In this document: in pieces, positions 10,311 to 25,197 of the stretch
Layout: each line of letters opens with the position of its first letter
Position numbering within the stretch: position 1 is the first letter of the stretch
Assembly (NCBI GenBank): GCA_044343155.1
Contig: JAVZSS010000002.1
Location: forward strand, 1 to 40,099
DNA length: 40,099 bases
Direction: 5' to 3'
Source: Candidatus Aenigmatarchaeota archaeon
GTDB taxonomy: Archaea > Aenigmatarchaeota > Aenigmatarchaeia > CG10238-14 > SpSt-28
The notes under the pieces: generated by a model
Told to the model about the DNA's origin: nothing
Databases searched by the model: none
Seen by the model: only the letters and a program-made list of their open reading frames with translations
Translations under genes and position numbers: made by a program

Positions 10311-10338
10311 ATATTATTAATTCTCCAATTATTTTATA

Positions 10339-11025: not shown

Positions 11026-11026
11026 A

Positions 11027-12244
11027 ATGATTGAAATAAAGAAAATTTTATTGATTGTTATTCTTCTCTTTATTTTTACCCCATCTCTATCCGCTTTGCT
11101 AACACCAGCTTTAACATTTAATATATCTCCAAATCCAATTGTTTCCTTTCCAGGAACTGATGGCTATATTTACATTAATTTAAAAAATGTTGGTAATGAT
11201 TATGCTCAAGATATTAAAGTTGTTGCAATTAATATCGACCCTGGAATTGTATTGCCTTATGATAATGAAATTAAAATAGGTAATTTAGCACCAGGAGATT
11301 CAACTATTGTATTATTAAAATATTCTGTTCCAAATTCTATAGAAAGCGGATTATATAGAGTTAAAATAAAGATTGAGTATTGCCAAGAATCTAGTTGTAA
11401 AGATATTTATCAGTACGCTTTGATAAACGTACAAAGTCCATCAGCATTAAGAGTTAAATCTATATCACCAACAGAAATTAAAGTAGGTAATAGTGAAACT
11501 TTATACTTAACTATATCAAATGAAGGAAATTCTGAAGCAAAAAATATATTTATAACAATTAGAGATTTTAGTGGAAATCTTTTGACATTTGGCTCAGATA
11601 ACAAATACTATATTGAAAAACTTTCTCCAAAAGAAGAAAAAATTATAACATTTAATGTTTCTGTTTCTTCTTTAGCTAACCCAGGACTATATCCAGTTTA
11701 CATTTATGTAGAATATACAGATAAATCGAACTCAAGAATATTTATAAATTCTTCTTTTGGATTGAGAATTCGCGAAGATATTGATTTCTTTGTTGGTACT
11801 CAAGAAGTAAGTGGAAATTTAGTTACTATTTCCATAGGAAATATTGGATTATCAACAGCATATAGCGTAGTATTAGAAATTCCTTCACAGCCAAACTTTT
11901 ATTCTTCTGAGCCTTTAGTGTTTATAGGCAACATAAATCCCGGAGATTACACTTCTGTTTCTTTAAATATTTATCCCGCAAGAACAAATGAAAGCGAAAG
12001 AAAATATAACAATAGTTTAAAAATTTACCTTTACTATACTAATGAAAAAGGAGAAAGAGAAAAAGTGGAAAAAATTATAAAAATTAATCTTGAAAGAAAT
12101 ATAACCTCAACCTATTTTACTCCTAGATTTCAGCAAAAATCTCAAACCGAACCTTTTTATTATTTGAAATATATTATCGCAATTTCGATTATAATTTCTC
12201 TAATTTTACTTCTTTACAAACTTAAAAAAGGAAAGAAAAAATGA
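11027..12244 (+). CDS. Secreted, C-terminally membrane-anchored protein with three CARDB/S-layer-like beta-sandwich repeats
   Basis: N-terminal signal-like helix ILLIVILLFIFTPSLSA. Three related roughly 100-aa modules each end in ..GLY.V.I.IEY / ..GLYPVYIYVEY. C-terminal TM YIIAISIIISLILLLY plus KKGKKK, with many N-x-S/T sequons. The start is set at ATG 11027, 9 nt after GGAGG at 11013-11017. The track start at 11000 or ATG 11018 is also possible. Confidence 0.65.
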   Translation: MIEIKKILLIVILLFIFTPSLSALLTPALTFNISPNPIVSFPGTDGYIYINLKNVGNDYAQDIKVVAINIDPGIVLPYDNEIKIGNLAPGDSTIVLLKYSVPNSIESGLYRVKIKIEYCQESSCKDIYQYALINVQSPSALRVKSISPTEIKVGNSETLYLTISNEGNSEAKNIFITIRDFSGNLLTFGSDNKYYIEKLSPKEEKIITFNVSVSSLANPGLYPVYIYVEYTDKSNSRIFINSSFGLRIREDIDFFVGTQEVSGNLVTISIGNIGLSTAYSVVLEIPSQPNFYSSEPLVFIGNINPGDYTSVSLNIYPARTNESERKYNNSLKIYLYYTNEKGEREKVEKIIKINLERNITSTYFTPRFQQKSQTEPFYYLKYIIAISIIISLILLLYKLKKGKKK

Positions 12245-13503
12245 AGCTGCTAGATTTATTTAAATTATCATTAAACAACATCTTGCACAGAAAGTTAAGA
12301 AGTTGGCTAACAATTTTAGGAATTATTATAGGTATTGCCACAATAGTTTCTTTAAATGCTATAGGAGAAGGAATGAGAGAAAGAATAAATCAACAATTAG
12401 CTGGTTTGGGTCCAGATATAATTACTATTACTCCTGGTTATATTAGAGCGTCTCCATATCAGTTTGAAAGATACATGCAAATAATTAGAGGATTAAGAGG
12501 TGAAGAAAAAACCCTAACAGAAAATGATGCAAAAATAATTCAAAATATTCCTGGTGTGTCTTATGTTAATACAATAGTTTCTGGTAGAGGTAATGTATCT
12601 TTCAAGGGTCAATCTATTTCATTAACTATTCAAGGAGTAGATGCTTCGGTTTGGAAATACATAGAAATAACTCAAATAGAAAAAGGAAGATATCTTTTAT
12701 CAAATGATAAAAATGTTGCAGTTTTGGGGAATAGAGTTGCCTATTCTATTTTCAAAAACGAAATTAGGGTTGGCGATATAATAAATATAAATGGTGAATC
12801 CTTTAAAGTTGTCGGTATATTGCAGCCAGCAGGAGCATTAAGCGTTTTAACAGATTCTGCTATTTTTATTCCAAAAGAAGATGCGAGAAGAATTTTAAAA
12901 TTAAACAATAAAGATGTTTCTTCTATAGTTGTCAAAGTAAATGATGTATCTCAAGTAGATGATATTGCAAAAGAAATTGAAAGAAGGCTTAGAATTTTCA
13001 GAAAAGTTAATGAAAACAATCAAGATTTTACTGTAACCACAACACAACTAATTAAGCAACAAGTTATGAGTATTGCAGAAACGACAACACTTTTTTTAAC
13101 ACTAATTGCTGCTATTTCTCTTTTGGTTGGTGGGATAGGAATTGCTAATACTATGTTTACTTCTGTAATGGAAAGAACAAGATTAATAGGAACATTAAAA
13201 GCTCTTGGAATGACTAATAAAGATGTTATGGTTTTATTTATTTTAGAATCGATAATACTTAGCTTAATTGGAGGAATATTAGGAATTTCGGTTGGTATTA
13301 TTGTTTCAGATTTAATAGGTAGAATAACTATTTTTGGAATTGGAATGACAAGCAGAACAAGTCAAGGAATTCAACTAGTAGTAACGCCCCAAATTGTTTT
13401 TCTTTCTCTTATTTTTTCTATATCTATAGGTGTTTTGGCTGGTCTAATACCTGCAAGAAGAGCCGCAAAACTTCAGCCTGTTGAGGCATTGAGATATGAA
13501 TAA
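12241..13503 (+). CDS. ABC transporter permease, FtsX/MacB family
   Basis: TM1, then a large extracytoplasmic domain, then three C-terminal TMs containing the FtsX-type block GIANTMFTSVMERTRLIGTLKALGM. ATGA overlap with the upstream gene. Confidence 0.88.
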   Translation: MKLLDLFKLSLNNILHRKLRSWLTILGIIIGIATIVSLNAIGEGMRERINQQLAGLGPDIITITPGYIRASPYQFERYMQIIRGLRGEEKTLTENDAKIIQNIPGVSYVNTIVSGRGNVSFKGQSISLTIQGVDASVWKYIEITQIEKGRYLLSNDKNVAVLGNRVAYSIFKNEIRVGDIININGESFKVVGILQPAGALSVLTDSAIFIPKEDARRILKLNNKDVSSIVVKVNDVSQVDDIAKEIERRLRIFRKVNENNQDFTVTTTQLIKQQVMSIAETTTLFLTLIAAISLLVGGIGIANTMFTSVMERTRLIGTLKALGMTNKDVMVLFILESIILSLIGGILGISVGIIVSDLIGRITIFGIGMTSRTSQGIQLVVTPQIVFLSLIFSISIGVLAGLIPARRAAKLQPVEALRYE

Positions 13504-13557
13504 AAACTTTATCAGAAAAATTTAAAAACATTTATTTATATTTTACAATTCTTCTTT

Positions 13558-14589
13558 ATGATAAACGTAGCTGTAAATGGCATTGGAACTATAGGAAAAA
13601 GAGTAGCTCACGCAATAAAATTACAAAAAGATATGAAACTAAAGGCAATAATTGGACATCAACCAAATCCAATACTTAAAACTGTATTGGAACCAAATGG
13701 GTTCTTGTACGGTACAGATCTTTGGGCAGTTAATGAAGAATCTCTAAAAAAATTCAAAGAAGCAGGAATGATAGTGAATGGTACTTTAGAAGAACTTTTA
13801 AAAAAAGGAGAAATTGATGTAATTGTAGATTGTACACCAGAAGGAGTTGGAAAAGAAAATAAAGAAAAAATATATTCAAAGTATAATGTAAAAGTTATAT
13901 TTCAAGGTGGAGAAGAAGCAGATGTCGCTGAAATTACATTCAATGCCTTAGTTAATTATGAAGAGGCACTAGGAAAAAGATTTGTTAGAGTTCCAAGTTG
14001 TAATACAACTGGCCTAATTAGAACTTTACATGCAATAGATTCTAAAATAGGAATTGAAAAAGCTTCTGTCTTTATAGCAAGAAGAGCTGCCGATCCTTGG
14101 GAATATAAAAAGGGACCTATTGATGCTATAGAATTTGAAGAAGTACCTTCTCATCATGCTGAAGATGTAAAAACAGTTTTGAAGAATTTGAATATATTTT
14201 CTATGGCTATTAAAGTTCCTACTACTTTAGCACATACTCATATGGTTGAAGTTGTTTTAAAAAGAAGTGCAAAAAAAGAAGAAATAATAGAGGCTTTTGA
14301 AAAACAAACTAGAGTTGTTTTATTAGATAGAAAAGAATATCCATCAACATCTATGATAAGAGAAAAATTTAGAGATTATATAAGACCTAGAGGAGATATG
14401 TACGAAATAGTTGTTCTTAGAGACACTATTCACATAGAAAATAATATATGCAGGTGGATACATGTAGTTCATCAAGAAGCTGATGTCGTACCAGAAAACA
14501 TAGATGCAATAAGAGCTATGACAGAAATAGAAAAAGATAAATGGAAAAGTATAGAAAAGACTAACAAATCTCTAGGTATTGTTAAGTAA
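13558..14589 (+). CDS. gap: Glyceraldehyde-3-phosphate dehydrogenase, archaeal type II
   Basis: N-terminal Rossmann motif VAVNGIGTIGKRV and active-site VPSCNTTGL, characteristic of archaeal phosphorylating GAPDH. Confidence 0.9.
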   Translation: MINVAVNGIGTIGKRVAHAIKLQKDMKLKAIIGHQPNPILKTVLEPNGFLYGTDLWAVNEESLKKFKEAGMIVNGTLEELLKKGEIDVIVDCTPEGVGKENKEKIYSKYNVKVIFQGGEEADVAEITFNALVNYEEALGKRFVRVPSCNTTGLIRTLHAIDSKIGIEKASVFIARRAADPWEYKKGPIDAIEFEEVPSHHAEDVKTVLKNLNIFSMAIKVPTTLAHTHMVEVVLKRSAKKEEIIEAFEKQTRVVLLDRKEYPSTSMIREKFRDYIRPRGDMYEIVVLRDTIHIENNICRWIHVVHQEADVVPENIDAIRAMTEIEKDKWKSIEKTNKSLGIVK

Positions 14590-14850
14590 AGTAAAGGTAA
14601 CTAATGTACTATTCTCTTTTTCTTCTATTTTTTCTATTTTGGCTTTCAATCCCATTTCTTTTAAGAAGTATATTAAATCTTCAAAGTAGTCGTAGTAGCC
14701 ACATGTTAAACAAAAGTAACCACTAAACTCTACTAAAAATTTATCTTTTTGATAGTATACTAGTCTAGCTTTTGCTTCTGGGCTTCTATATTTGTTATAT
14801 TCTTCAATTGCTTTATCAATCAATTCTTTGTTCATTTTTCCAAAGTCCAT
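14572..14850 (-). CDS. Small hypothetical protein with a single CxxC motif, immediately downstream of superoxide reductase
   Basis: 92 aa, or 87 aa from the second Met at 14835. Motif YFCLTCGYYDYF. Overlaps the SOR stop and the converging gap stop. No family recognised. Confidence 0.5.
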   Translation of the reverse strand: MDFGKMNKELIDKAIEEYNKYRSPEAKARLVYYQKDKFLVEFSGYFCLTCGYYDYFEDLIYFLKEMGLKAKIEKIEEKENSTLVTFTLLNNT

Positions 14851-15187
14851 GAATGTTACAATAAGCTATTGCAATCAATGTTCCTTTTTTATTTAATTTT
14901 ACTTTAAACAATGCTGTTGGTTCAACATATATTTCACTAGTGTTTGGTCCTTTTGTTGATTCCCCATGCGCATTAAATTCTGCCCTACCTAAGTTATATA
15001 CAAAAGCTTCATTATCTGGTAAAAATAATAGTTCTATATACTTAATGTGGTGTTCTGTTGTATTAGGATGTGGAATTTCTTTACCTACAGTTACTCTAAT
15101 TAAAGCAAGGTTTTCTTCTTTTTCAATTTCAATTACTGGTACATGCTTTTCTTTTTTCCAATCTTCAGTTTTAAAAATTTCTACCAT
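14816..15187 (-). CDS. sor: Superoxide reductase (neelaredoxin-type, 1Fe-SOR)
   Basis: Near-collinear with the Pyrococcus SOR pattern: DWKKEKHVPVIE, GKEIPHPNTTEHHIKYIEL, AHGES, CNIHGLW (His4-Cys iron ligands). The start is set at ATG 15185-15187. The track start at 15196 is a GTG. Confidence 0.92.
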   Translation of the reverse strand: MVEIFKTEDWKKEKHVPVIEIEKEENLALIRVTVGKEIPHPNTTEHHIKYIELLFLPDNEAFVYNLGRAEFNAHGESTKGPNTSEIYVEPTALFKVKLNKKGTLIAIAYCNIHGLWKNEQRID

Positions 15188-15215
15188 CTTTATCACTCTA
15201 AAAAATAAAAAAGTG

Positions 15216-15863
15216 TTATTCTAGGCTTTTATAGCAGAACCACCAATCATAACACTCTATTTCTTTTTTAGCTGCCTTTTCTAATCTTTCTTTAGCGACT
15301 TTTTCTGATTTAGCTGGAGGTATTATAACTTTATTTCCTATAAGTTCGTTGTTCGGCCAATTTGCAGGTAATGCCACTTGATTTCTATCTGAAGTTTGGA
15401 GTGCTCTAACCATTCTTAAAATTTCATCTATGTTTCTTCCAACTTCTTGTGGATAATATAGTATCGCCCTTATTGTTCCTTTTGGATCGATTACAAAAAC
15501 TGCCCTAACTGTATTTGTTCCTTTAGCTTCATGAATCATGCCAAACATTGATGATATTTTTCCTAAATCATCTGCAATTATCGGAAATTCTATCTCTATT
15601 CCTAACTTCTCTTTAATCCATTCTACCCATTTTATATGAGAAAAGACTTGATCTATACTTAAGCCTATCAACTCTGTATTTAATTTTTTAAATTCTTCGT
15701 ATCTCTTTTGAAATGCAACAAACTCTGTTGTACATACTGGTGTGAAATCTGCTGGATGACTAAAAAGTACTACCCATTTTCCTTTATAGTCGTTTGGAAA
15801 CTCTATTTCTCCCTTTGTAGTTATTGCCTTGAATTGTGGTGCAGGATCCCCTATCTTTAACAT
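15216..15863 (-). CDS. Peroxiredoxin (Prx6/archaeal Prx-type thiol peroxidase)
   Basis: Peroxidatic Cys block [13 protein letters not shown]. The start is set at ATG 15861-15863 ([11 protein letters not shown]), 4 nt after a GGTGAT SD. The track start at 15875 is a TTG. Confidence 0.92.
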
Positions 15864-15881
15864 ACACATCACCAAAAAATA

Positions 15882-15919
15882 TTTATGGTACGAAAATATA
15901 TACTTTATGGTACGAAAAT
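15882..15919. promoter_or_regulatory. Two perfect 16-bp direct repeats (TTTATGGTACGAAAAT), a putative operator in the divergent prx/lrp control region
   Basis: Copies at 15882-15897 and 15904-15919, with a 22-bp period. They lie between the prx ATG (15863) and the lrp ATG (15907). The second copy contains the lrp start codon. Confidence 0.55.
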
Positions 15920-16335
15920 CGGAAATAAATAAAATTGAAAAAATTTTGAATATTTTGATGGAAAATTCAAGAATAAAATTTACACATTTAGCTAAACAGC
16001 TAGGAGTAACTGAAGGTGCAATAAGAAAGAATATAGCAAACCTGATAAGAAAAGGAATAATTAGAAAATTTACAGTAGATATAGACTGGAAAAAGGTTGG
16101 TCTAAAAACCGCATTTATAGGATTTGATTGTGAACCAGAATACTTTGATAGAATTATTGAAAATATAAAGAAGATTAAAGAAGTAAAAAGAATATATATT
16201 AGTAGTGGTGATCATCAATTTATTGTTTTTACCATATATAAAACCGGAAAAGAAATTAAAGACGTTATTAAAAAAATTAAAGAAATAAAAGGAGTAAAAA
16301 AAGTTTGTCCATCTATAATTGTTGAAGAGATTTAA
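15907..16335 (+). CDS. Lrp/AsnC-family transcriptional regulator
   Basis: [36 protein letters not shown] followed by a RAM/ACT-like C-terminal domain (AFIGFDCEP...VKKVCPSI). The start is set at the first ATG (15907). The upstream part of the track ORF overlaps prx. Confidence 0.85.
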
Positions 16336-16598
16336 ATTTCGTTAACTTCTTTCCTTCCTTCTTCTAATTCTTTTTCTTGCTCCTTATCCATTTCTAACAA
16401 CAATGTTAAAAATTCCCCTATATGTGTTTTTTCCTCTTTCGCTATATCTAGCAAAACTTTTTTAAGTTTTTTGTTATTCGTATTTGCTGCTAATTGCTCA
16501 TATAAACTAACTGCATCTAACTCTGCTATTAACCCTAATCTAGCAATTTGTTTATCTTTATCTTTTTCATCAATTTTAGTTGGCTTTTCTGCTAACAT
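16332..16598 (-). CDS. EncFtn-like (encapsulated-ferritin family) mini-ferritin / rubrerythrin-like half-ferritin
   Basis: 88 aa. ELDAVSLYEQ ... IAKEEKTHIGEFLTLLLEMD parallels the EncFtn di-iron pattern E-L-E-A-V-x-x-Y-D-Q ... EEKEH ... L..L...D. Its stop shares a TTAA with the lrp stop. Confidence 0.65.
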   Translation of the reverse strand: MLAEKPTKIDEKDKDKQIARLGLIAELDAVSLYEQLAANTNNKKLKKVLLDIAKEEKTHIGEFLTLLLEMDKEQEKELEEGRKEVNEI

Positions 16599-16634
16599 AC
16601 AATCTATAGATTTTCAAAATTAAATAAAATACAT

Positions 16635-16709
16635 GGGCCCGTAGCGTAGCTTGGATAACGCGCCTGGCTTCGGACCAGGAGATCGTGGGTTCAAATCCCA
16701 CCGGGCCCA
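16635..16709 (+). tRNA. tRNA-Arg (anticodon UCG)
   Basis: Cloverleaf GGGCCCG-TA-GCGT-AGCTTGGATA-ACGC-G-CCTGG-CTTCGGA-CCAGG-AGATC-GTGGG-TTCAAAT-CCCAC-CGGGCCC-A. Anticodon loop is CU-UCG-GA. CCA is not encoded. Confidence 0.95.
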
Positions 16710-16902
16710 TTAAAATTTGTGGAAAAATAATATCTTCTACAAATTTAAAAATCACTCAAAATAATGATATTATAAGCTATTTTGGAGTGAGATTACGGAA
16801 TCAAAAATAAATTTCTTATTTTTGAGTTTATCACGAATAAAAAAACTAAACCAAAATACATTCAAGATTTTAAAACACGAATTTAGATTTTGGAATTACA
16901 AA

Positions 16903-16921
16903 AGTATTACTTCGTAATACT
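16903..16921. promoter_or_regulatory. Perfect 8-bp inverted repeat AGTATTAC-ttc-GTAATACT next to a TATA-like box, a putative operator
   Basis: Arms at 16903-16910 and 16914-16921 are exact reverse complements. A TATA-like TTATATAC at 16921-16928 lies about 21-28 nt upstream of the ATG at 16949. Confidence 0.4.
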
Positions 16922-16948
16922 TATATACTTTTCTGTACAAATATAATA

Positions 16949-18103
16949 ATGCCGTTGGTTTGGGCGTCCGAAATATATGTAGAAAAAGAAGACAAAACAG
17001 TTAGGATATTACCTATAGATATAATAGAAAGAAAAGAAATAAACCGAATAGCTCAAAGTTCTAAAAAAGAAGAATGGGAGAGATTTAGTTTTCAATTAGA
17101 AAATGATGAAACCAAAACGATTAAAACTCCTTACCCAGCTAGAATAGGTGGCGGTGTTCTGGCTGTAGTAAGTCTTCCAGAGGGTACGTATTATGCACTA
17201 GTCATGAGGGATGAAAAAGCTCCCTCTTATAAGTTATCCTATGATATATTTGCCGGAATTCCGGATACTACAAATTTAGAAAAAACTATGCATGAGTCTG
17301 GGAACAAGAGACTAGTTATGCCGCAAACGTATCGTTTAATATATGAACAAAATGAGCTTGGGTTTATAGTTAGGTATAAAGATTCTATTGCATTTTATAT
17401 ACCAGTTCTAAGAAATGTTTCAGAAGAAGTGAAACGCCATTTAGTTAGTAGTGCGCTTAGCGGTTATCTTTTACTATCACGAGAAATAAAAATACCAAAA
17501 ATAATAATAGAAGAAAGTGGAGAAATAGGAAGTTTTTCGGAAAGCTATAAAATTCGTGAATACGACATTGAAGGAAAAAATGTAATATCTGAGCTTGGAG
17601 GAGCAACAATAACAGTAGAAAAGGAAAGTGGCAGCGTTGAGGTTATTTGGCCTATTAAAATAACTCCCACTATCGAAGGTGAAATTAGACCCATCGACGC
17701 TCAGCTTGATAGAGTCAAGCCTTTTGGCTATGAAATTATTTTCTATGACATGGAAGCTATTGGAAACTTTGACAATCATGGGGGAACACTAATAATCAAT
17801 GATGTAAATCTGCTTAATAGAAATATAGTTTTACTCTCAACAACCAATCCAAACTCATCATATGGTACTATCGTATATAAAGGTGGTAGAACTATATATA
17901 GAGGGAAGTTAAACGAATGGATTGAAGTTAGTGGCTTGAGAGATGCCATAAGAAGGGGGGAGACAACCGGTCTAACCCCAAAAGTAAAACATTTATATAA
18001 ACTCGGAGAAAAAGATGTGGGCATAACCTTTAGTGGTCGTGAACTTAAATTAGATTCGTTTAGAGAATTAGGCAGAATGTTGTATGAGATAAAAAATATT
18101 TAA
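16949..18103 (+). CDS. Hypothetical protein, 384 aa, no recognisable domain (ORFan in the tRNA-Arg-adjacent island)
   Basis: Long uninterrupted ORF with non-repetitive, globular-looking sequence. GC and use of CCG/GCG/CGT codons are visibly higher than in neighbouring genes. No TM segment or signal peptide. Confidence 0.7.
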   Translation: MPLVWASEIYVEKEDKTVRILPIDIIERKEINRIAQSSKKEEWERFSFQLENDETKTIKTPYPARIGGGVLAVVSLPEGTYYALVMRDEKAPSYKLSYDIFAGIPDTTNLEKTMHESGNKRLVMPQTYRLIYEQNELGFIVRYKDSIAFYIPVLRNVSEEVKRHLVSSALSGYLLLSREIKIPKIIIEESGEIGSFSESYKIREYDIEGKNVISELGGATITVEKESGSVEVIWPIKITPTIEGEIRPIDAQLDRVKPFGYEIIFYDMEAIGNFDNHGGTLIINDVNLLNRNIVLLSTTNPNSSYGTIVYKGGRTIYRGKLNEWIEVSGLRDAIRRGETTGLTPKVKHLYKLGEKDVGITFSGRELKLDSFRELGRMLYEIKNI

Positions 18104-18125
18104 CTTATGTCCTAGCTTATAATTT

Positions 18126-18863
18126 ATGGTAAAAAGAAGGATCTCTCTAACTATCGAGAAAGATTTGGTGAAAAAAGTTGATTATTTAATTGATAAATCA
18201 CTAATAAAAAATCGGTCCCAAGCCTTTGAATTTTTAATAAAAGAATACTTTAGAAGAAAAGAAGTAAAAAAATGCTTCATACTCGTTTCCGATTGGAGAA
18301 ACCAATTTAGAAAAATAAACGACTATCTATTAATATCCCACAACATAAAAAAAATTAAGGAAGCCGGAATAGAGAACATTTTTGTAGTTACCCCTCACGA
18401 AGAGAAATTTCTAAAGATTCCGGAAATAAAAATAATAAAGGAAAGAGAACGATTAGGAAATATAGGAGCTTTATGGTTATGTAAGAACGAGCTAGAAAAT
18501 AACGAAAATTTTCTCACCATTTACGAAAATGTTCTAATAGAATTTGACTTAAGAGAATTATTCAACTTTCATATTTCTAAAAACTCTATAGCCACTTTTG
18601 TTGTTTGTGAATATGAAAGTGAAAAAAGTAGAGATTTAATAAAGATTAGAGGTGATAGAATAGTGGAGTACAAGTGGATTAAAAATGGAATCAAAACAAA
18701 CATATCTGGTTGTGGGGTATTTGTATTCAATGAAAAAATATACAATTTAATTCCAGAAAGAAAAGGTATGTTGGAAGAACTCCTTTTCCCCCTTTTAGCT
18801 AAGAGCGACAATTTCTTCGCTTTCTTCATCCCAAAAGAAGAATGGAGAGAATTTGAAGAATAG
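18126..18863 (+). CDS. Ribbon-helix-helix (NikR/CopG-like) domain fused to a sugar-nucleotidyltransferase-like fold lacking the canonical G-x-G-T-R loop
   Basis: N-terminal RHH RISLTIEKDLVKKVDYLIDKSLIKNRSQAFEFLIKEY. The rest is collinear with NTP_transferase proteins (..IKKIKEAGIENIFVV.., ERERLGNIGALWL vs EEPLGTAGAL, DLRELFNFHISKNSIATF, GCGVFVFNEKIYNLI). The expected LAGGxGTRL site reads LVSDWRNQF. Confidence 0.65.
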   Translation: MVKRRISLTIEKDLVKKVDYLIDKSLIKNRSQAFEFLIKEYFRRKEVKKCFILVSDWRNQFRKINDYLLISHNIKKIKEAGIENIFVVTPHEEKFLKIPEIKIIKERERLGNIGALWLCKNELENNENFLTIYENVLIEFDLRELFNFHISKNSIATFVVCEYESEKSRDLIKIRGDRIVEYKWIKNGIKTNISGCGVFVFNEKIYNLIPERKGMLEELLFPLLAKSDNFFAFFIPKEEWREFEE

Positions 18864-19266
18864 CATCTTAAGTTATTCTGAACTAATCTAAACTTTTGTT
18901 TCTATCTTCAGTTGCAAATTGAACAAAAACTTCACTGAAGCAAAACAATAATTGAGATGAAAGAAAATTAGATTCAAAGACATAAAGAAAGAATTTCATA
19001 ATTACTGGTAACAAAAAATATGAAAGTCGTATCATAAACTAAACTCTTTATAAGAAAAGGTTTTAGCTAGATTTTAATAAATTCATTTCAATTAACTTAA
19101 AACTCTAAAAAACGTAAAGTGAGAAAACAAATCACTCAAATCATTTAAAATTGCTATTATCTACTATTTATGACGCAAAAAACGCCAAGTTTATAGTCTA
19201 TAATATTCAACTGGAGGTTTTTTTATGAAAATCAGAATTTTTTAAGAATAAATCATAGCAAATATT

Positions 19267-20415
19267 ATGATAAATAACTCCATAATCATAAGATATAGTG
19301 AAATTTTCATTAAATCTGAAAATGTTTTTAGAATTTATGAAAGAAAGCTATTGGGAAATATAGCTAAACATTTAAATAAAAGTAAAATTGAAGCTAAAAT
19401 TAAAACCGAAAGAGGAAGGATTTTTTTATTTACAGAAAAAATTGAAGAATGTTTGAAAATATTAAATAACATTTTTGGAATACAATCTTTTTCTCCAGCT
19501 ATCTACTTATCAACAACTAATAAAGAAGATTTGGCAAAATTCATTTCAAAATATTATGAAACTCTAATTCCTGAAGGAAAAACTTTTGCAATTAGAGTTA
19601 ACAAAGGTATTGATGCTGATTATAAGAGTAAAGAATTAGAAGCTTATTTAGGTAGTTTTGTTAAAAGAAAAGTAAATTTAGAAAATCCGGACATAGAAAT
19701 AAATTTTGATATTAGAAAGATCGGCACTTTTGTCTATACTACTAATATTAAAGGTTTAGGAGGATTACCAATATCAGCCTCTGGTAAAGTTATATCACTA
19801 ATTTCTGGCGGCATAGATTCTGCAGTTTCAAGCTATTTTGCAATGAAGAGAGGATGTGAAGTTGTATATCTTCATTTTAGTAGCTTTCCTATAGCCTCAA
19901 AAAAGAGTATAGAAAAAGTAGAAAAGTTAATTGAAGTTTTGAACAAATTCCAAGTTAAAAGTAAGCTATATATAGCAAACATTGGAGAATACCAATTAAA
20001 AATGAAAAGTGTTGCTAATCCGAAATACTTAGTTGTTTTATACAGAAGATTAATGTTTAGAGTCGCAGAAAAAATTGCTGAAATGGAAAATGCAAAAGCA
20101 CTAGTTACTGGAGAAAGTGTAGGACAAGTTTCTTCTCAAACTCTACATAATTTAAAACTAATAGAGGAAGTTGTTAAAATTCCTATACTTAGACCATTAA
20201 TAGGATTTAACAAGGATGAAATTATAGAAATTGCAAAAAAAATAGGAACCTATAAAATTTCTATAATTCCGTGTGAAGACACTTGCAGTATGTTTGTTGG
20301 CAGACATTCTTCAGCAGCCGCAAATGAAAATAAAGTAAAAGAATATGAGAAGACTTTAGGAATAAACAAAATGGTAAAAAAAATATTAAAAGAGATTGAA
20401 ACTAGGGAAATTTAA
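19267..20415 (+). CDS. thiI: tRNA 4-thiouridine synthase / sulfurtransferase ThiI (THUMP + PP-loop)
   Basis: N-terminal THUMP-like region (IIIRYSEIFIKSENV...) and PP-loop SLISGGIDSAVSSY. No rhodanese domain. Confidence 0.88.
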   Translation: MINNSIIIRYSEIFIKSENVFRIYERKLLGNIAKHLNKSKIEAKIKTERGRIFLFTEKIEECLKILNNIFGIQSFSPAIYLSTTNKEDLAKFISKYYETLIPEGKTFAIRVNKGIDADYKSKELEAYLGSFVKRKVNLENPDIEINFDIRKIGTFVYTTNIKGLGGLPISASGKVISLISGGIDSAVSSYFAMKRGCEVVYLHFSSFPIASKKSIEKVEKLIEVLNKFQVKSKLYIANIGEYQLKMKSVANPKYLVVLYRRLMFRVAEKIAEMENAKALVTGESVGQVSSQTLHNLKLIEEVVKIPILRPLIGFNKDEIIEIAKKIGTYKISIIPCEDTCSMFVGRHSSAAANENKVKEYEKTLGINKMVKKILKEIETREI

Positions 20416-20768
20416 GATTTCTCTTTTTTCTTTTTAGTTTTCTTTTCTTCAACTTTCTTTTCTTCTTTTTTGTTATCTGAAATTTCCTTTAATTCTGCTT
20501 CTGATGGTAGTTTCAAGCCTAACTTTTCATATAGCTTAGATTTCTTCCAAGCCTCTAAAACCTCTTTATCGTCAGCTTCTTCTTTTATTTCTAGTTTATA
20601 GCTAGTTGGTTGGAGATGTATTACATTTGCTCTTCTTCTTTTTACTCCAGTTAATTTTTTCGGACCTGTTACTAAAACAAAGTTTTTATCAATTTTCTTA
20701 ACTACCACGCAGTATTTTCCTTTTTCCCTACCTACTAGCTTAACACATATGCTACCTACTTCTAACAT
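20412..20768 (-). CDS. rpl14e: 50S ribosomal protein L14e (eL14) with a Lys-rich C-terminal tail
   Basis: KOW-like core LEVGSICVKLVGREKGKYCVVVKKIDKNFVLVTGPKKLTGVKRRRANVIHLQPT. Tail is SDNKKEEKKVEEKKTKKKKEKS. Confidence 0.85.
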   Translation of the reverse strand: MLEVGSICVKLVGREKGKYCVVVKKIDKNFVLVTGPKKLTGVKRRRANVIHLQPTSYKLEIKEEADDKEVLEAWKKSKLYEKLGLKLPSEAELKEISDNKKEEKKVEEKKTKKKKEKS

Positions 20769-21226
20769 TAGCTCACCTCTAGCAATTTAGTTAATACTGT
20801 ACTAATTATAAATGTTAAGATTATATAGAAATAAATTATTTGAATATTTTGAAATGGAAAACTTATGGGAAGTTTGACATAGTTTCCAGAGTAGTTATAC
20901 TGTATCCAAGACAAACAGAATATACCAATTACTAAAGAAACCGCTAAAATTTTAAAAGTTTGCTTGAAAATAGTAGCATTTAACTTAATCAATCTATTAA
21001 ACAACTCTTCTTCTTTTTCTTTGTTTTTTAAAATTCTCTCTCTAATTTCATCCATTTCTTTTCTCAATTTCTTAATTTCTTCGTTACCTAGAAATTTTTT
21101 TCTAAAAAACAGAGTTATTAAAGTAAAAATTAAAGTTAATATCAATATGCTTATAATTGGGTTTAAACTATTTAGAGGAAAAAACAAAACATCTACAAAT
21201 TTTCCTATGTAAGATAGATTATTCAT
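20768..21226 (-). CDS. DUF106/EMC3-TMCO1-like membrane protein (archaeal YidC/Oxa1-like insertase candidate)
   Basis: TM, then a basic coiled-coil (KKLRKEMDEIRERILKNKEKEEELFNRLIKLN), then TM-TM topology. It occupies the position after secY where DUF106 genes sit in archaeal spc operons. ATGA overlap with secY and TAATG overlap with rpl14e. Confidence 0.55.
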   Translation of the reverse strand: MNNLSYIGKFVDVLFFPLNSLNPIISILILTLIFTLITLFFRKKFLGNEEIKKLRKEMDEIRERILKNKEKEEELFNRLIKLNATIFKQTFKILAVSLVIGIFCLSWIQYNYSGNYVKLPISFPFQNIQIIYFYIILTFIISTVLTKLLEVS

Positions 21227-22665
21227 TTACCCTCACCTAAAATATTTAATAATATCTTAGGTGCTCCTTCCAAATCCTCATTCTTTATAATTTCATATGT
21301 GTTATAAGCTATGGTAACTGCTAAAAGTAAACCAGTTCCTGAACCTATTGCCCCCAACCAATCAGCTATTATTGTCAAAACCCCAATAAAAAACCCACTT
21401 AATACTGAAAGTGGAGAAATATACTTGTTTAATACAGATTCTATTACTCTGGGGTCTCTTCTATACCCAGGAACTTGCATTCCTATTATATATAGTTGCT
21501 CAGCTATGGACTTTGCATCCATACCACTGGTATTTACCCAAATAACGGAAAATAAAATACAACCAACTATCATAATCAAAGAATAAACAAAAAAGTGTAA
21601 TATTAGAGTTTTAAAATTAGTACCATACAAAATTTCATTAACAATCCCTCTAGGTGCAGAAATATAGTAAACTATTCCACTTATTGGGTTTCCATTAGAA
21701 TCATAACACCCAAAAAAATTGCAATATTTCCCTGGAGAAACTTCCTGTAACCCAATTCTTCCCATCATTTGAATGTTCATCAATAAAGCCCACATAAATA
21801 TTACAGGAATATTACTAGTATAGAGAAGCTTTAAACTCCATGCCCTTCCAAATCCCTTGAACATTGAAAATGCGAGCGGTATCTCAATATTTATTGCTTG
21901 GATATAAACAACTAAAAGAAATACTATAGCAGTAGATAAAATTGGGAAAAAGGCAAGTAAAGCGTTTGTAGGATTATTATTATAAAAATTTATTAAAAAT
22001 TGCCAAAAAAGGCCAACTGGTGGATTGTTTAAGGAAGGTATACATGCAGATAATGTATTTATAGAACAACCAGAAGGAAATGGAGAAAAAATTCTAATAA
22101 AGATTTGGGACGCTATTCCGGCCATTATAAACAAACTAACTCCAGAACCTATTCCCCACTTATTTATAGCCTCATCAAACAATATTACTAAAATTCCTCC
22201 CAAAGCTATTTGGAATATAACTAAAGGTAAAAAAATTGTGATTGTATGTAGTGGTCCTAAAAAAACATATGCAGCAGCTTCAACAAAAGCTAAAACAAAG
22301 GCAAGAGTTTTGTTCCACATCTCAAATTTTTTTCTACCCTCTTTTGTTGTTGTATCTAAATTTATTATTTTTGACCCTACTAAAAGTTGTAATATTATTC
22401 CTGCAGTAACTATTGGACCTATCCCTAATGTTAATAAACTGCCGAATCGTGCACCTAACAAATGCTGCAAAGTTATGAAATATTGGGCTTGGGGGGAAAG
22501 ACTTAGGCCAACAATTGGAACATAAGAAAGAAAGAAATAAGCAAATAAAATCAAAATTGTCCACTTCAGTTTTTCCCTTATACTTATTTTGTATAGAGGA
22601 TCAACTACCGTAGGTAAATAAATGTAAATTCTTTCTGCTATTTCACCCAGCTTCATTATTATCAA
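21223..22665 (-). CDS. secY: Preprotein translocase subunit SecY
   Basis: 480 aa, 10-TM pattern, with conserved blocks GIGPIVTAGIILQLL and SNIPVIF. Follows L15 as in all archaea. Confidence 0.95.
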   Translation of the reverse strand: MIIMKLGEIAERIYIYLPTVVDPLYKISIREKLKWTILILFAYFFLSYVPIVGLSLSPQAQYFITLQHLLGARFGSLLTLGIGPIVTAGIILQLLVGSKIINLDTTTKEGRKKFEMWNKTLAFVLAFVEAAAYVFLGPLHTITIFLPLVIFQIALGGILVILFDEAINKWGIGSGVSLFIMAGIASQIFIRIFSPFPSGCSINTLSACIPSLNNPPVGLFWQFLINFYNNNPTNALLAFFPILSTAIVFLLVVYIQAINIEIPLAFSMFKGFGRAWSLKLLYTSNIPVIFMWALLMNIQMMGRIGLQEVSPGKYCNFFGCYDSNGNPISGIVYYISAPRGIVNEILYGTNFKTLILHFFVYSLIMIVGCILFSVIWVNTSGMDAKSIAEQLYIIGMQVPGYRRDPRVIESVLNKYISPLSVLSGFFIGVLTIIADWLGAIGSGTGLLLAVTIAYNTYEIIKNEDLEGAPKILLNILGEGK

Positions 22666-22681
22666 TTATAGATACTGAAAT

Positions 22682-23089
22682 TTAACTCTTTAGAATTATC
22701 TCTCCACCAACATTTTTTACTTTTTCAATAGCTTTTTTGGAAGCTTTAAGAGCTTCTATTGTGGCTCTAAACTTTAAATTTCCTTTTCCCAAGATTTTCT
22801 CATAACCATAATCCAAAATATTTATTCTTATATTGTTTTTATCTATTTTTCCTTCTTCGATTAATTTTTCTATCAAATAGTTCAAATCCTCTAAGTTTAT
22901 AACTTTATATTCCTTTCTTAATGGATACCTAAATCCTCTTTTATCTTCTCTTTCCAAAAATTTAAAAATATGTTTGTGTTTGCTGACATTACCCCTTCCC
23001 CCTTTATGTCCTCCCCCTTTTCTATTTTTATGATGCCCATGATAAGTTCTCTCTCCTCTTCTTCTTTTCTTTTCTCTTCTCACTACCAT
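22682..23089 (-). CDS. rpl15: 50S ribosomal protein L15 (uL15)
   Basis: Gly/Lys-rich N-terminus KKRRRGERTYHGHHKNRKGGGHKGGRGN, at the operon position after L30. Confidence 0.93.
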   Translation of the reverse strand: MVVRREKKRRRGERTYHGHHKNRKGGGHKGGRGNVSKHKHIFKFLEREDKRGFRYPLRKEYKVINLEDLNYLIEKLIEEGKIDKNNIRINILDYGYEKILGKGNLKFRATIEALKASKKAIEKVKNVGGEIILKS

Positions 23090-23554
23090 CTAAATCATCC
23101 TTTTAATTAGTTCATTTATTTCTTTTCCTCTATATCCCAAATCTCCTTTGGGCCAATGCTCCTTTATACTTTTTAATCCTTTAGAAGGAGGCCTAAGTCT
23201 AAAGTATGGTTGTAAAACTTCAAAATCTTTTAATTTAACTTTTCCAGAAATTAAGGCATCTGCAAAATCTTCAAATGTTGAAAACCCAGTAACTTTTTTC
23301 AGATCTTCTTCACTAACTTTTTTATTCCCTTTTCCTTTCATTCTTAATCTTTTTTTAAGAAGCATAACTAACGTTTCTTTTTCTATTTCGCCATATGTTA
23401 TAAAATCTTTGACTTTTTCTAACATACCCTTTATACTCTCATTTTCAGGAAACAAATTACAATTAAACTTATACTTTAATCTTAGTAATTTTAACGTATC
23501 TTCAATTCTTTTAGGCACTCCAACACAGCCTCTTAATCTAATAGCTACAAACAT
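23090..23554 (-). CDS. rpl30: 50S ribosomal protein L30 (uL30)
   Basis: MFVAIRLRGCVGVPKRIEDTLKLLRL start and archaeal long-form length (154 aa). Abuts L15. Confidence 0.92.
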   Translation of the reverse strand: MFVAIRLRGCVGVPKRIEDTLKLLRLKYKFNCNLFPENESIKGMLEKVKDFITYGEIEKETLVMLLKKRLRMKGKGNKKVSEEDLKKVTGFSTFEDFADALISGKVKLKDFEVLQPYFRLRPPSKGLKSIKEHWPKGDLGYRGKEINELIKRMI

Positions 23555-23556
23555 TT

Positions 23557-24252
23557 TTATTCCCTCTCATAAATGTATAGTTTCTTAAGAGCATCATATA
23601 TTGCCCCAATTAAATTTATGTGCATACTAGTATTTCCAAAAGTCTTTACCCAAACATCTTTTATACCAACTAATCTTAAAATTTTTTTGCTTTCATCATC
23701 CGCAACCAAACCAACACCCTTTGGAGCAGGATATAAAATAACCTTAACACTACCACACTTTCCCTCAACCTTATAGGGAATTGAATGCTCAGTGCCACAA
23801 CCACATTCCCAACTGCCACACCCCCTTTTAACTTTTATAATATTTAATTTAGCTCTCCTTCTTGCTTTTTCTATTGCTCTCTTTGCATCAACAGAAACCC
23901 CCTTACCTATACCAACATAACCATTTTCATTACCAATTACAATAAAAGCCGACATTCTAAATCTTCTTCCCGATTTTTTCATTCTAGCGGTAACTCTAAT
24001 AGGAATTCTTTGAGCGCCTCCACCCTTTCCAGTCCTTTTTCCTATTAAAATCAATTCCTCTTTTAAACCTGGAAGTAAATAATCTACAATTTCTTCCTCT
24101 AAAATCCTTTTTCCACTTTCTAAAATTTCATCTATACTCTTAATTTTTCCTTCTAGAACAGCTCTACCTAAAGATGTTTTTGGTACCCATATCTTTTCTT
24201 TTTCTGGAGCTTTAAGCTCCCCTTCAACTTCCTCTCCTTTTTCCTCAACCAT
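23557..24252 (-). CDS. rps5: 30S ribosomal protein S5 (uS5)
   Basis: dsRBD-like plus S5 C-terminal domain: RFRMSAFIVIGNENGYVGIGKGVSVDAKRAIEKA ... GSVKVILYPAPKGVGLVA. Confidence 0.95.
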   Translation of the reverse strand: MVEEKGEEVEGELKAPEKEKIWVPKTSLGRAVLEGKIKSIDEILESGKRILEEEIVDYLLPGLKEELILIGKRTGKGGGAQRIPIRVTARMKKSGRRFRMSAFIVIGNENGYVGIGKGVSVDAKRAIEKARRRAKLNIIKVKRGCGSWECGCGTEHSIPYKVEGKCGSVKVILYPAPKGVGLVADDESKKILRLVGIKDVWVKTFGNTSMHINLIGAIYDALKKLYIYERE

Positions 24253-24254
24253 TA

Positions 24255-24770
24255 TTATCCCTCTTTATCAATAGCATTCTTTACTTCTTCAAAATTATTT
24301 ACAACATTTTCATTAATATGCATTCCTTTTATTCTATTTTCATCTGGAAAAATAGAAGGATCATGAGGAACTATCAAACCAGCATCTATAGCTCCTTTTA
24401 AAAATGCGTATGCCCTATTTCCTTTTGTTGACGAATACAAACCTAAATCGAAAACTGCCTCATTTATACCATTTTTAATTGCTTTTTTTGCAAGAAGATA
24501 ACCAGTTAAGTATGCTGCTGGCGTATTATCACAAGCATACTTCCATCCAAATTTTTTAAGAACCTTAGATGTTAAACCAACTAAAGTTCTATCTCCTTTT
24601 TTATCGAAAGAAATAATTTGCCCTATTATATATTTTAAGGTTCTCCTAAAAACTAATCTTGGTTTCTTAGAAAGCAGTAATTTTAACCTCTTTCTGTAAT
24701 TAGTTTTTCCTTCTCTCCTTCTTCTAAAATGAATTCTATATGTTGGAGAAATCTTTGGCATTTTATTCAC
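24255..24770 (-). CDS. rpl18: 50S ribosomal protein L18 (uL18)
   Basis: YRIHFRRRREGKTNYRKRLKLL N-terminus and NRAYAFLKGAIDAGL. Confidence 0.95.
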   Translation of the reverse strand: MNKMPKISPTYRIHFRRRREGKTNYRKRLKLLLSKKPRLVFRRTLKYIIGQIISFDKKGDRTLVGLTSKVLKKFGWKYACDNTPAAYLTGYLLAKKAIKNGINEAVFDLGLYSSTKGNRAYAFLKGAIDAGLIVPHDPSIFPDENRIKGMHINENVVNNFEEVKNAIDKEG

Positions 24771-25197
24771 CCTTCAAAAGATTGTGTTGTTTAAGATATA
24801 GCTCTAAGTGTGCTCTACTCTTAAACATTCCACCTTTTATTAAAGCTCTTATTTTTCTATAAGTTCTATTATCTATCTTACCTTCTTCTTTTAGTTCTTT
24901 AGCATATCTTCTTAAAACTCTAACCAGTCTTATCCATCTTTCCTTTCTAGAAACAATCGAATATTTTTTACCTTTTCTACTACCATGATACCTTCTTCTT
25001 TTTTCTTTTTCCTTAGGTCTTGGTAGCTTTTCTTTTTTCTTTTTTATGTAACCTTTTTTAATAAGCCTCCTTATATCGGCTGCAGAAACCGCCTTCTCAA
25101 TTTCTGAAATCTTAGTCGGATCTAACCATATCTTACTTTCTCCAACACCAAATATTCTTGCTGCCAATCTCTTTTGTAGCTTCATAATATCACTCAT
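24763..25197 (-). CDS. rpl19e: 50S ribosomal protein L19e (eL19)
   Basis: LQKRLAARIFGVGESKIWLDP and a basic middle region RRYHGSRKGKK. Confidence 0.95.
   Translation of the reverse strand: MSDIMKLQKRLAARIFGVGESKIWLDPTKISEIEKAVSAADIRRLIKKGYIKKKKEKLPRPKEKEKRRRYHGSRKGKKYSIVSRKERWIRLVRVLRRYAKELKEEGKIDNRTYRKIRALIKGGMFKSRAHLELYLKQHNLLKGE

What the first reader, a model, noticed from the sequence alone, without database searches (positions are those of the whole stretch)
18126..18863. RHH DNA-binding domain fused to a nucleotidyltransferase fold that appears to have lost its catalytic loop
Residues 1-45 read as a NikR/CopG ribbon-helix-helix (RISLTIEKDL...NRSQAFEFLIKEY). The remaining roughly 200 aa align by eye along the whole length of sugar-1-phosphate nucleotidyltransferases (ERERLGNIGALWL vs EEPLGTAGAL; GCGVFVFNEKIY vs NAGIYVF). 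The nucleotide-binding signature LAGGxGTRL is replaced by LVSDWRNQF, and the NGD-type block by YEN.

This suggests an enzyme fold repurposed as a ligand sensor that controls transcription, probably sensing a sugar-nucleotide or NTP. I do not know this architecture as characterised.
Basis: partly seen in the sequence, partly recalled or inferred. Interest (0 to 1): 0.6.

Follow-up and report, generated by a model that had tools for sequence, protein, structure and literature searches.

The report
DNA-binding regulator with dead sugar-enzyme body
This gene of a tiny hot-spring archaeon joins a NikR-type DNA-binding head to a sugar-activating enzyme fold that has lost its catalytic residues. It most likely represses its own two-gene cassette, which some strains of the same population carry and others lack.

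Summary
ORF 18126-18863 encodes a NikR-type ribbon-helix-helix (RHH) domain (residues 1-45). It is fused to a confidently folded sugar-1-phosphate nucleotidyltransferase (NTase) domain (pLDDT 95). That domain has lost the pyrophosphate loop and three of four catalytic residues: D to N135, K to E218, D to E242.

It is not an orphan architecture. More than 140 cluster representatives share it, along with 440 species genomes of CPR bacteria and DPANN archaea and 151 of 370 genomes of its own phylum. Most have a degenerate loop. I found no paper describing the family. The scan has noted the same family in at least 84 other genomes.

An unbiased 6-mer test on relatives' promoters gave GTATGA, the NikR half-site, as the top enriched word, usually in pairs 10-11 bp apart. 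The only GTATKA-N5-TMATAC site in this 609-kb genome lies at 16904-16920, in the promoter of the operon holding this gene.

The gene, an upstream 384-aa ORFan and 403 bp of non-coding DNA form a 2.55-kb segment just 3' of tRNA-Arg. The segment is absent from all eight same-genus genomes. Hot-spring metagenomes contain both the filled and the empty site.

Best reading: an autoregulating repressor with an enzyme-derived, catalytically dead sensor or scaffold domain. The ligand and the ORFan's role are unknown.

The parts
16634..16710 (+). tRNA-Arg (TCG). Its 3' end is the left boundary of the variable segment.
   Evidence: ARAGORN; Rfam tRNA 71 bits; homology with G092 and G090 ends at 16712-16720.
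16711..19264 (.). 2.55-kb strain-variable segment: ORFan-384, the RHH-NTase gene and a 403-bp non-coding tail. Single copy, with no integrase and no flanking repeat of the tRNA.
   Evidence: Absent from same-genus genomes G092 (flanks 98.9% and 91.8% identical) and G090. Metagenome contigs join 16709 to 19264 in three runs, while other contigs of the same runs carry the segment. No second copy and no att-like repeat.
16904..16920 (.). Candidate operator GTATTA-N5-TAATAC, the core of the perfect 9-bp inverted repeat AAGTATTAC-TTC-GTAATACTT at 16902-16922.
   Evidence: It is the only GTATKA-N5-TMATAC site in the 608,795-bp genome; 0.15 are expected. The same box type and spacing occur upstream of relatives' fusion genes. 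Relatives with the same R-S-T reading residues use GTATTA boxes.
16921..16928 (+). TATA-like box TTATATAC, 21-28 nt before the ATG of ORFan-384. It abuts the right operator arm. This is inference, since no transcript data exist.
   Evidence: Read from the sequence. The spacing fits a leaderless archaeal promoter (general knowledge).
16949..18103 (+). ORFan-384, the first gene of the presumed operon. Function unknown.
   Evidence: No Pfam, PHROG, PADLOC or PDB match. One homologue cluster only, 95% identical, on the matching island contig. AlphaFold2 failed, pLDDT 31. GC is 34.7% against 28.1% for the genome.
18126..18260 (+). NikR-type ribbon-helix-helix DNA-binding domain (residues 1-45). Beta-strand reading residues are R5, S7 and T9; helix-2 cap is N29-R30-S31.
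   Evidence: S31 is invariant and R30 nearly so in the family.
18285..18323 (+). Remnant of the pyrophosphate-binding loop (residues 54-66, VSDWRNQFRKIND). It replaces GGxGTRLxPLT..PKP and is 13 residues shorter.
   Evidence: Alignments. Pfam profile positions 1-22 are unmatched.
18267..18863 (+). Sugar-1-phosphate nucleotidyltransferase-like domain (residues 48-245), catalytically degenerate. N135 is at 18528-18530, E218 at 18777-18779 and E242 at 18849-18851.
   Evidence: Residue roles come from PMC9168903.
18864..19266 (.). 403-bp non-coding tail of the segment. No ORF, no Rfam match and no similarity elsewhere in the genome.

Best explanation
The gene encodes a one-component transcription repressor built like NikR. 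An N-terminal NikR-type RHH domain reads DNA through R5, S7 and T9. It is joined to a C-terminal domain that was once a sugar-1-phosphate nucleotidyltransferase and can no longer catalyse.

RHH dimers bind the paired boxes GTATTA-N5-TAATAC at 16904-16920. These abut the TATA-like box of the ORFan-384 / RHH-NTase operon, so binding would block TBP/TFB and shut off the cassette (autoregulation). The dead enzyme domain supplies oligomerisation. Probably it also binds a nucleotide-type ligand, such as an NDP-sugar or nucleotide, that tunes DNA binding.

Shown here: the two domains, the loss of catalytic residues, family membership, enrichment of the box in relatives' promoters, the uniqueness of the site in this genome, and the variable-island context.

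Inferred: DNA binding itself, repression rather than activation, co-transcription of the two genes, and any ligand.
For: - Domains and fold.
- Dead active site: no GGxGxRL..PK loop; D to N135, K to E218, D to E242, N to G195. The two plain NTases of the same genome keep all of these (residue roles from PMC9168903).
- Selection: the degenerate state is kept in a 65%-identical homologue. Population SNPs in the gene are 4 synonymous to 1 non-synonymous.
- Family context: in 40 DPANN loci the fusion lies beside epimerase/dehydratase (15), UDP-sugar dehydrogenase (10), GT2 (9), flippase (7), GT4 (7) and sugar kinases. Plain NTases lie within 8 kb in 13 of the 34 loci where the fusion ORF was recovered.
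- Operator, family level: GTATGA is the most enriched of all 6-mers upstream of fusion genes (18/35 vs 52/568, p 1.7e-9). Paired boxes occur in 14/35 vs 13/568 DPANN regions and 13/75 vs 15/968 CPR regions.
- Reading residues: all 16 proteins with Arg at strand position 5 have boxes, against 2 of 12 K-S-T proteins.
- Operator, this genome: exactly one GTATKA-N5-TMATAC site, in this operon's promoter, against 0.15 expected.
- Precedent: the NikR operator is GTATGA-N16-TCATAC, and NikR is an RHH plus a ligand-binding tetramerisation domain (PMC7055735).
Against: - No experiment and no RNA data support any step.
- Taken alone, a 9-bp perfect inverted repeat in this AT-rich spacer is not rare (P about 0.1). 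The argument rests on the family-derived pattern.
- I saw the palindrome before defining that pattern.
- The relatives sampled are kin, so the p-values overstate.
- This gene has no sugar genes beside it, so the family's usual targets are missing.
- Its sugar-contact residues are changed, so it may bind nothing.
- The closest subfamily by overall similarity (K-S-T readers) does not use these boxes.
- The gene might have its own promoter: a TATA-like run at 18090-18100 preceded by a single GTATGA at 18082.
Confidence: 0.6

Rival explanations
1. Ligand-independent repressor or decaying relic. The RHH head still binds the operator, but the NTase-like body is only a dimerisation or tetramerisation scaffold, or is eroding after the gene moved away from sugar operons. 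On this reading nothing is sensed.
For: This copy is more eroded than the family norm. It has N135 where 121 of 137 members have D, GCG for NAG, R169/D170 for Y/G, and E218 for K. No sugar genes are nearby. It sits on an accessory segment.
Against: The domain folds with pLDDT 95. The base-contact residues E106 and G111 and the catalytic-site E217 are retained. The same degenerate pattern persists at 65% identity. SNPs are mostly synonymous.
Confidence: 0.2
2. Bifunctional enzyme-repressor, in the manner of PutA, BirA or NadR. The protein would still make an NDP-sugar and also bind DNA.
For: About 8% of family representatives (11 of 144) keep a full GGxGx[RK]L..PK loop and could be of this kind.
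Against: In this protein the pyrophosphate loop and lysine are deleted, and D111, K196 and D219 equivalents are N, E and E (PMC9168903). It lies in a well-supported 65-member clade with no intact-loop member. The genome has two intact NTases elsewhere.
Confidence: 0.04
3. Addiction or toxin-antitoxin-like cassette. ORFan-384 would be a toxin or selfish cargo, and the RHH protein its antitoxin-like autorepressor. This would explain a two-gene, strain-variable module.
For: The segment is a two-gene accessory unit with an autoregulatory-looking operator. RHH domains are common antitoxins; the profile weakly hits antitoxin Rv0298 at E 6e-4.
Against: There is no PADLOC, PHROG or Pfam hit for either partner as toxin or antitoxin. 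The RHH is NikR-type and belongs to a family tied to sugar operons. The gene order (regulator second) and the 200-aa enzyme-like body are atypical. ORFan-384 shows many non-synonymous variants.
Confidence: 0.07
4. Not a DNA-binding protein. The N-terminal 45 residues would be a structural extension of a divergent enzyme-like protein, and the palindrome a coincidence.
For: RHH_1 is just under the Pfam cut-off for this sequence alone. The palindrome alone has P about 0.1.
Against: The family profile hits NikR at E 2.1e-8 across the whole domain. 69 of 137 members pass RHH_1 at E <= 0.01. Box enrichment and its link to the Arg reader residue point the same way. The site is unique in the genome.
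Confidence: 0.04

Closest known systems
NikR (nickel-responsive repressor; E. coli 1q5v/2hzv, Pyrococcus horikoshii 2bj1)
   Same: Same N-terminal RHH type: profile E 2.1e-8 over positions 4-44. Same R-x-T/S-x-T beta-strand pattern and N-R-S helix cap. Same box word GTATGA in the family's promoters (NikR operator from PMC7055735). Same logic of an RHH head plus a C-terminal effector/oligomerisation domain.
   Different: The C-terminal domain is an NTase (GT-A-like) fold, not the ACT-like nickel-binding domain. Boxes are 10-11 bp apart, direct or inverted, rather than N16. This copy reads GTATTA. No metal site is evident.
Sugar-1-phosphate nucleotidyltransferases (GDP-mannose pyrophosphorylase VTC1/GMPPB, RmlA, archaeal GlmU-type)
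   Same: Same fold along residues 48-245: Foldseek E to 3e-17, TM about 0.7. The base-binding motif E..LG..GA and the catalytic-site Glu are retained.
   Different: No pyrophosphate loop or lysine; catalytic Asp, Lys and Asp are replaced; no C-terminal beta-helix domain; an added RHH head.
GMPPA, the non-catalytic paralogue of GMPPB
   Same: It is a precedent for this fold surviving as a non-catalytic NDP-sugar-binding regulator (PMC11228364 abstract; 7d72 chain B is among the fold hits).
   Different: GMPPA regulates an enzyme by protein-protein contact. It has no DNA-binding domain and is eukaryotic.
Enzyme-fused regulators PutA (RHH plus proline dehydrogenase), BirA and NadR
   Same: A DNA-binding head fused to an enzyme body, with the metabolite state coupled to repression (general knowledge).
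   Different: Those enzymes are active, and their enzyme folds are unrelated to this one.

Membership tests
Sugar-1-phosphate nucleotidyltransferase enzymes (Pfam PF00483 as an enzyme family) | Rossmann-like GT-A fold with profile similarity | tested here: met
   PF00483 E 1.7e-9, above the cut-off. AlphaFold2 pLDDT 95 and Foldseek E 3e-17 to GDP-mannose pyrophosphorylase.
Sugar-1-phosphate nucleotidyltransferase enzymes (Pfam PF00483 as an enzyme family) | N-terminal G-G-x-G-T-R-L..P-K pyrophosphate/NTP-binding loop | tested here: not met
   Replaced by VSDWRNQF with a 13-residue deletion. Profile positions 1-22 are unmatched.
Sugar-1-phosphate nucleotidyltransferase enzymes (Pfam PF00483 as an enzyme family) | Catalytic Asp (GD), Glu-Lys pair and C-terminal W-x-D Asp (VTC1 D111, E195-K196, D219) | tested here: not met
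   The equivalents are N135, E217-E218 and E242, so only the Glu is kept (roles from PMC9168903).
Ribbon-helix-helix (CopG/Arc/MetJ/NikR) DNA-binding domains | Profile match over strand-helix-helix | tested here: met
   RHH_1 E 0.0019 for this sequence alone, just below the cut-off. 69 of 137 aligned homologues pass at E <= 0.01, best 2.6e-9. The domain profile hits NikR at 2.1e-8 and CopG at 3e-3. Model helices are at residues 12-19 and 30-43.
Ribbon-helix-helix (CopG/Arc/MetJ/NikR) DNA-binding domains | Dimerisation by paired beta-strands and sequence-specific DNA binding | not testable with these tools
   Only indirect support is available: box enrichment and a unique site.
NikR family | C-terminal ACT-like nickel-binding tetramerisation domain | tested here: not met
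   NikR models match residues 4-48 only. The C-terminal 200 residues are an NTase fold.
RHH-NTase fusion family of CPR bacteria and DPANN archaea (undescribed in the literature searched) | Full-length homology: RHH plus an NTase-like domain in one chain of about 240-290 aa | tested here: met
   More than 140 representatives align end to end. The query lies in a 65-member clade with 96% support.
RHH-NTase fusion family of CPR bacteria and DPANN archaea (undescribed in the literature searched) | Paired GTATKA boxes, 10-11 bp apart, in its own or an adjacent promoter | tested here: met
   GTATTA-N5-TAATAC at 16904-16920, unique in the genome. Same arrangement in L144, L159 and L160.
RHH-NTase fusion family of CPR bacteria and DPANN archaea (undescribed in the literature searched) | Neighbourhood of nucleotide-sugar or glycan genes | tested here: not met
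   The neighbours here are an ORFan, tRNA-Arg and ThiI. Relatives have epimerases, dehydrogenases, glycosyltransferases and kinases.
Type II toxin-antitoxin antitoxins with an RHH domain | Small RHH protein paired with a recognisable toxin | tested here: not met
   No toxin or defence family matches for either gene. The regulator is 245 aa with an enzyme-like body.

The most novel reading that the evidence does not exclude
The 2.55-kb segment is a self-contained, self-regulated cassette that moves between strains of a hot-spring nanoarchaeon. A dead-enzyme sensor would read a nucleotide or NDP-sugar that this reduced symbiont may draw from its host. It would switch on ORFan-384, a protein of a new fold that varies between strains and acts at the cell surface or host interface.
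Probability: 0.1. Interest if true: 0.75.

Novelty: new variant of a known kind. Interest (0 to 1): 0.55.

Why it matters
Regulation in DPANN archaea and CPR bacteria is almost unstudied. This family is one of their commonest recognisable one-component regulators, present in 151 of 370 genomes of this phylum. Databases label it as an enzyme or as hypothetical.

It shows an enzyme fold turned into the effector domain of a NikR-type repressor. The DNA word (GTATGA/GTATTA) and the reading residues make predictions that a gel shift can test directly.

This copy adds two points. Such a regulator can travel with its operator on a small strain-variable segment. And it can govern a gene of unknown function rather than sugar genes.

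Practically, annotations such as 'mannose-1-phosphate guanylyltransferase' for these proteins are wrong for loop-less members. They inflate the apparent sugar-activation capacity of reduced genomes.

Tried and rejected
The contig of the 65% homologue P0002 could not be read, so operator conservation there is untested.
- The search for related loci with the 137-row alignment had no conserved stretch. It was repeated with a 27-row alignment.
- AlphaFold2 on ORFan-384 without an alignment failed, pLDDT 31. Pfam, PHROGs, PADLOC and PDB searches were empty. The ESM Atlas gave only low-feature leads.
- No RNA holder is listed among the sequencing runs, so expression is unknown.
- Rfam found nothing in the segment except the tRNA.
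- There is no att-like repeat of the tRNA, no integrase and no second copy of the segment. The mechanism of gain or loss is therefore unknown.
- The palindrome tested alone against shuffles is not significant (P about 0.1). A longer 10-bp inverted repeat lies at 16801-16825.
- A search for further copies of the operator in the genome found none within 2 mismatches, so no wider regulon can be proposed.
- The G-versus-T choice at box position 5 tracks T7 versus S7 only weakly (RTT 16:5, RST 4:8 in DPANN; not seen in CPR).
- Literature searches for the fusion returned nothing relevant.

Full report
**The object**

ORF 18126-18863 (+) encodes 245 aa. The genome holding the window is 608,795 bp in 34 contigs, 86% complete and 28% GC. 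Runs holding this DNA are hot-spring metagenomes. All sampled genomes of its phylum are 0.4-1.9 Mb. Related records are named Nanoarchaeota, Woesearchaeota or Parvarchaeota. It is therefore a DPANN-type archaeon.

**Observation check**

- Pfam NTP_transferase matches residues 59-240 at E 1.7e-9. Only profile positions 23-226 are covered, so the part of the profile that holds the G-loop has no counterpart.
- The best solved relatives are GDP-mannose pyrophosphorylases.
- An AlphaFold2 model built on 137 homologues has pLDDT 95 and pTM 0.89. Foldseek returns the same enzymes at E 1e-15 to 3e-17, TM about 0.7.
- RHH_1 is just under the cut-off for this sequence alone (E 0.0019). NCBIfam NikR models match residues 4-48 at E 3e-4.
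- The homologous N-terminus passes RHH_1 in 69 of 137 relatives, best 2.6e-9.
- A profile of the 45-residue domain finds E. coli NikR at E 2.1e-8 over its whole RHH, P. horikoshii NikR at 8e-5 and CopG at 3e-3.

**Is it still an enzyme?**

I used the roles given for Arabidopsis VTC1 (PMC9168903) and the HMMER alignment.

| VTC1 residue(s) | Role | Here |
|---|---|---|
| G9, T12, R13, K23 | pyrophosphate site | no counterpart; loop replaced by VSDWRNQFRKIND, 13 residues shorter |
| D111 | catalytic Asp | N135 |
| E195-K196 | catalytic pair | E217-E218 |
| D219 | catalytic Asp | E242 |
| N173, Y145, G146 | mannose contacts | G195, R169, D170 |
| position 80, G85 | guanine contacts | E106, G111 (kept) |
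| W217 | active site | W240 (kept) |

The two other PF00483 genes of the same genome (contigs C1 and C14) have the full loop, the Asp and the W-x-D-I-G motif. Catalysis is therefore very unlikely. The triphosphate site in particular is gone.

The degenerate state is stable. A 65%-identical homologue shares it. Population variants in the gene are 4 synonymous to 1 non-synonymous, with no indels.

**The family**

- A full scan of 1.84 billion representatives gave 685 hits. More than 140 of the best 150 align from residue 1-3 to the C-terminus and carry the RHH.
- Among 144 RHH-bearing representatives, 11 keep GGxGx[RK]L, 60 keep only xGG and 73 have lost it, often with a 9-16-residue deletion.
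- The LGTAG, GD, EKP and NAG motifs are better kept.
- On a FastTree tree, loop loss needs at least 10 changes. The query plus P0002 lie inside a 65-member clade (96% support) with no intact member.
- The exact peptide I[RK]NRSHAIE alone marks 440 species genomes. Most are Patescibacteria/CPR (Roizman-, Gottesman-, Woese-, Parcu- and Saccharibacteria), plus DPANN archaea.
- In the query's phylum, 151 of 370 genomes have a match at E <= 1e-40, nearly all of them full-length.
- Source names are 'hypothetical protein' or 'mannose-1-phosphate guanyltransferase'.
- I found no paper on the fusion.
- Earlier notes of this scan report the same family in at least 84 genomes.

**Family context**

I examined 40 DPANN loci with up to 8 kb on each side; the fusion ORF was recovered in 34 of them. 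The genes that recur beside it are:

- NAD-dependent epimerase/dehydratase: 15 loci
- UDP-glucose/GDP-mannose dehydrogenase: 10
- GT2 glycosyltransferase: 9
- Wzx-type flippase: 7
- GT4 glycosyltransferase: 7
- PfkB, ROK and GHMP sugar kinases
- plain NTases in 13 of the 34 loci

In CPR loci the neighbours include undecaprenyl-diphosphate synthase, mevalonate-pathway enzymes and phosphomannomutase.

**Operator**

An earlier scan note mentioned GTATGA boxes. I tested this without presupposing the word, by ranking all 6-mers in the 150 bp upstream of 35 DPANN fusion genes against 568 other genes of the same loci.

- The top word is GTATGA/TCATAC (18/35 vs 52/568, p 1.7e-9). It is followed by AGTATG, TAGTAT, AAGTAT and GTATTA.
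- Two boxes within 25 bp occur in 14/35 vs 13/568 regions (p 4e-12). In CPR loci the figures are 13/75 vs 15/968.
- Boxes come as direct repeats with a 10-bp period, or as inverted GTATKA-N5-TMATAC. They often lie between a TATA-like run and the start codon, or in the divergent spacer to a sugar operon.
- All 16 proteins with Arg at strand position 5 (R-T-T or R-S-T) have boxes. Only 2 of 12 K-S-T proteins do.
- E. coli NikR binds GTATGA-N16-TCATAC (PMC7055735). The profile aligns the family's R-x-T-x-T with NikR's strand.

In the window, the perfect repeat AAGTATTAC-TTC-GTAATACTT (16902-22) contains GTATTA-N5-TAATAC. It abuts TTATATAC, 21-28 nt before the ATG of ORFan-384. This is the only such site in the whole genome, against 0.15 expected. 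The query's reading residues are R5, S7 and T9. The R-S-T relatives L144, L159 and L126 also use GTATTA boxes.

Caveats:
- The relatives are not independent.
- I had seen the palindrome before fixing the pattern.
- The palindrome alone is not significant (P about 0.1).

**The island**

- Against the same-genus genome G092, window 10001-16720 is 98.9% identical and 19237-26000 is 91.8% identical. In G092, and in the more distant G090, tRNA-Arg is followed within 30-50 bp by ThiI.
- None of eight same-genus genomes has the gene. Only 1 of the 17 other genomes of the same family has a match.
- In hot-spring runs X1, X2 and X5, contigs join 16709 to 19264 (word depths 106, 19.6, 12.9). Other contigs carry the segment (depths 26, 12.2, about 6.5). 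Both alleles therefore coexist.
- Parsimony favours gain in this lineage.
- There is no integrase, no att repeat and no second copy.
- ORFan-384 has a single homologue cluster at 95% identity and GC of 34.7%. Among listed variants it has 8 non-synonymous to 5 synonymous changes, plus a 12-nt in-frame insertion variant. Nothing indicates its function.

**Verdict**

This is a NikR-type RHH regulator whose effector domain is a dead sugar-nucleotidyltransferase. It is a member of a very large, apparently undescribed family. Most likely it autoregulates a two-gene cassette through a GTATTA-N5-TAATAC operator.

Three things are not established: the ligand (an NTP is unlikely), the sign of regulation, and the cargo gene's role. 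What is unusual about this copy is its extreme erosion, its lack of sugar-gene neighbours and its place on a strain-variable segment next to a tRNA.

Noticed in passing
window 16711-19264: A 2.55-kb segment directly 3' of tRNA-Arg is missing from same-genus genomes. Three hot-spring metagenomes contain both the filled and the empty site. Identity to G092 drops from 98.9% left of it to 91.8% right of it, which suggests a recombination boundary.
   Followed up: yes
window 16949-18103: ORFan-384 has no detectable relatives beyond a 95% variant and higher GC (34.7%) than the genome. Among listed population variants, non-synonymous changes outnumber synonymous ones (8 to 5). Some samples carry a 12-nt in-frame insertion at 17374.
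   Followed up: partly
window 16801-16825: A perfect 10-bp inverted repeat, TCAAAAATAA-ATTTC-TTATTTTTGA, lies inside the segment about 90 bp after tRNA-Arg. Its role is unknown; it could be a terminator-like hairpin or chance in AT-rich DNA.
   Followed up: no
window 18082-18087 and 18277-18282: Two single GTATGA boxes in inverted orientation flank the start of the RHH-NTase gene. The first sits just before a TATA-like run at 18090-18100. Single boxes occur at chance frequency in the window (46 vs 44 expected), so this may mean nothing. It could also mark an internal promoter.
   Followed up: partly
G000 contigs C1:8799-9506 and C14:5017-5685 (L001, L002): The genome keeps two ordinary sugar-1-phosphate nucleotidyltransferases with intact catalytic loops. 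Neither has a paired GTATKA site.
   Followed up: partly
loci L122, L124, L125, L127-L129, L137, L139, L150, L152, L153: Family members with K-S-T reading residues, the subfamily closest to the query overall, lack GTATKA boxes upstream. They often sit beside PfkB or ROK sugar kinases and presumably read a different, unidentified operator.
   Followed up: no
loci L042-L121: Many records carrying the fusion are titled 'uncultured Gammaproteobacteria'. Their gene order matches the records named Roizmanbacteria or Microgenomates, so these titles look like mislabels of CPR bacteria. In these loci the fusion lies beside undecaprenyl-diphosphate synthase, mevalonate-pathway genes and phosphomannomutase.
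   Followed up: partly
L133 (G037:C25:115517-117155): Two RHH-NTase fusion genes sit in tandem, one R-S-T and one R-T-T reader. Each has its own array of boxes, next to a 494-aa bifunctional-type NTase.
   Followed up: no
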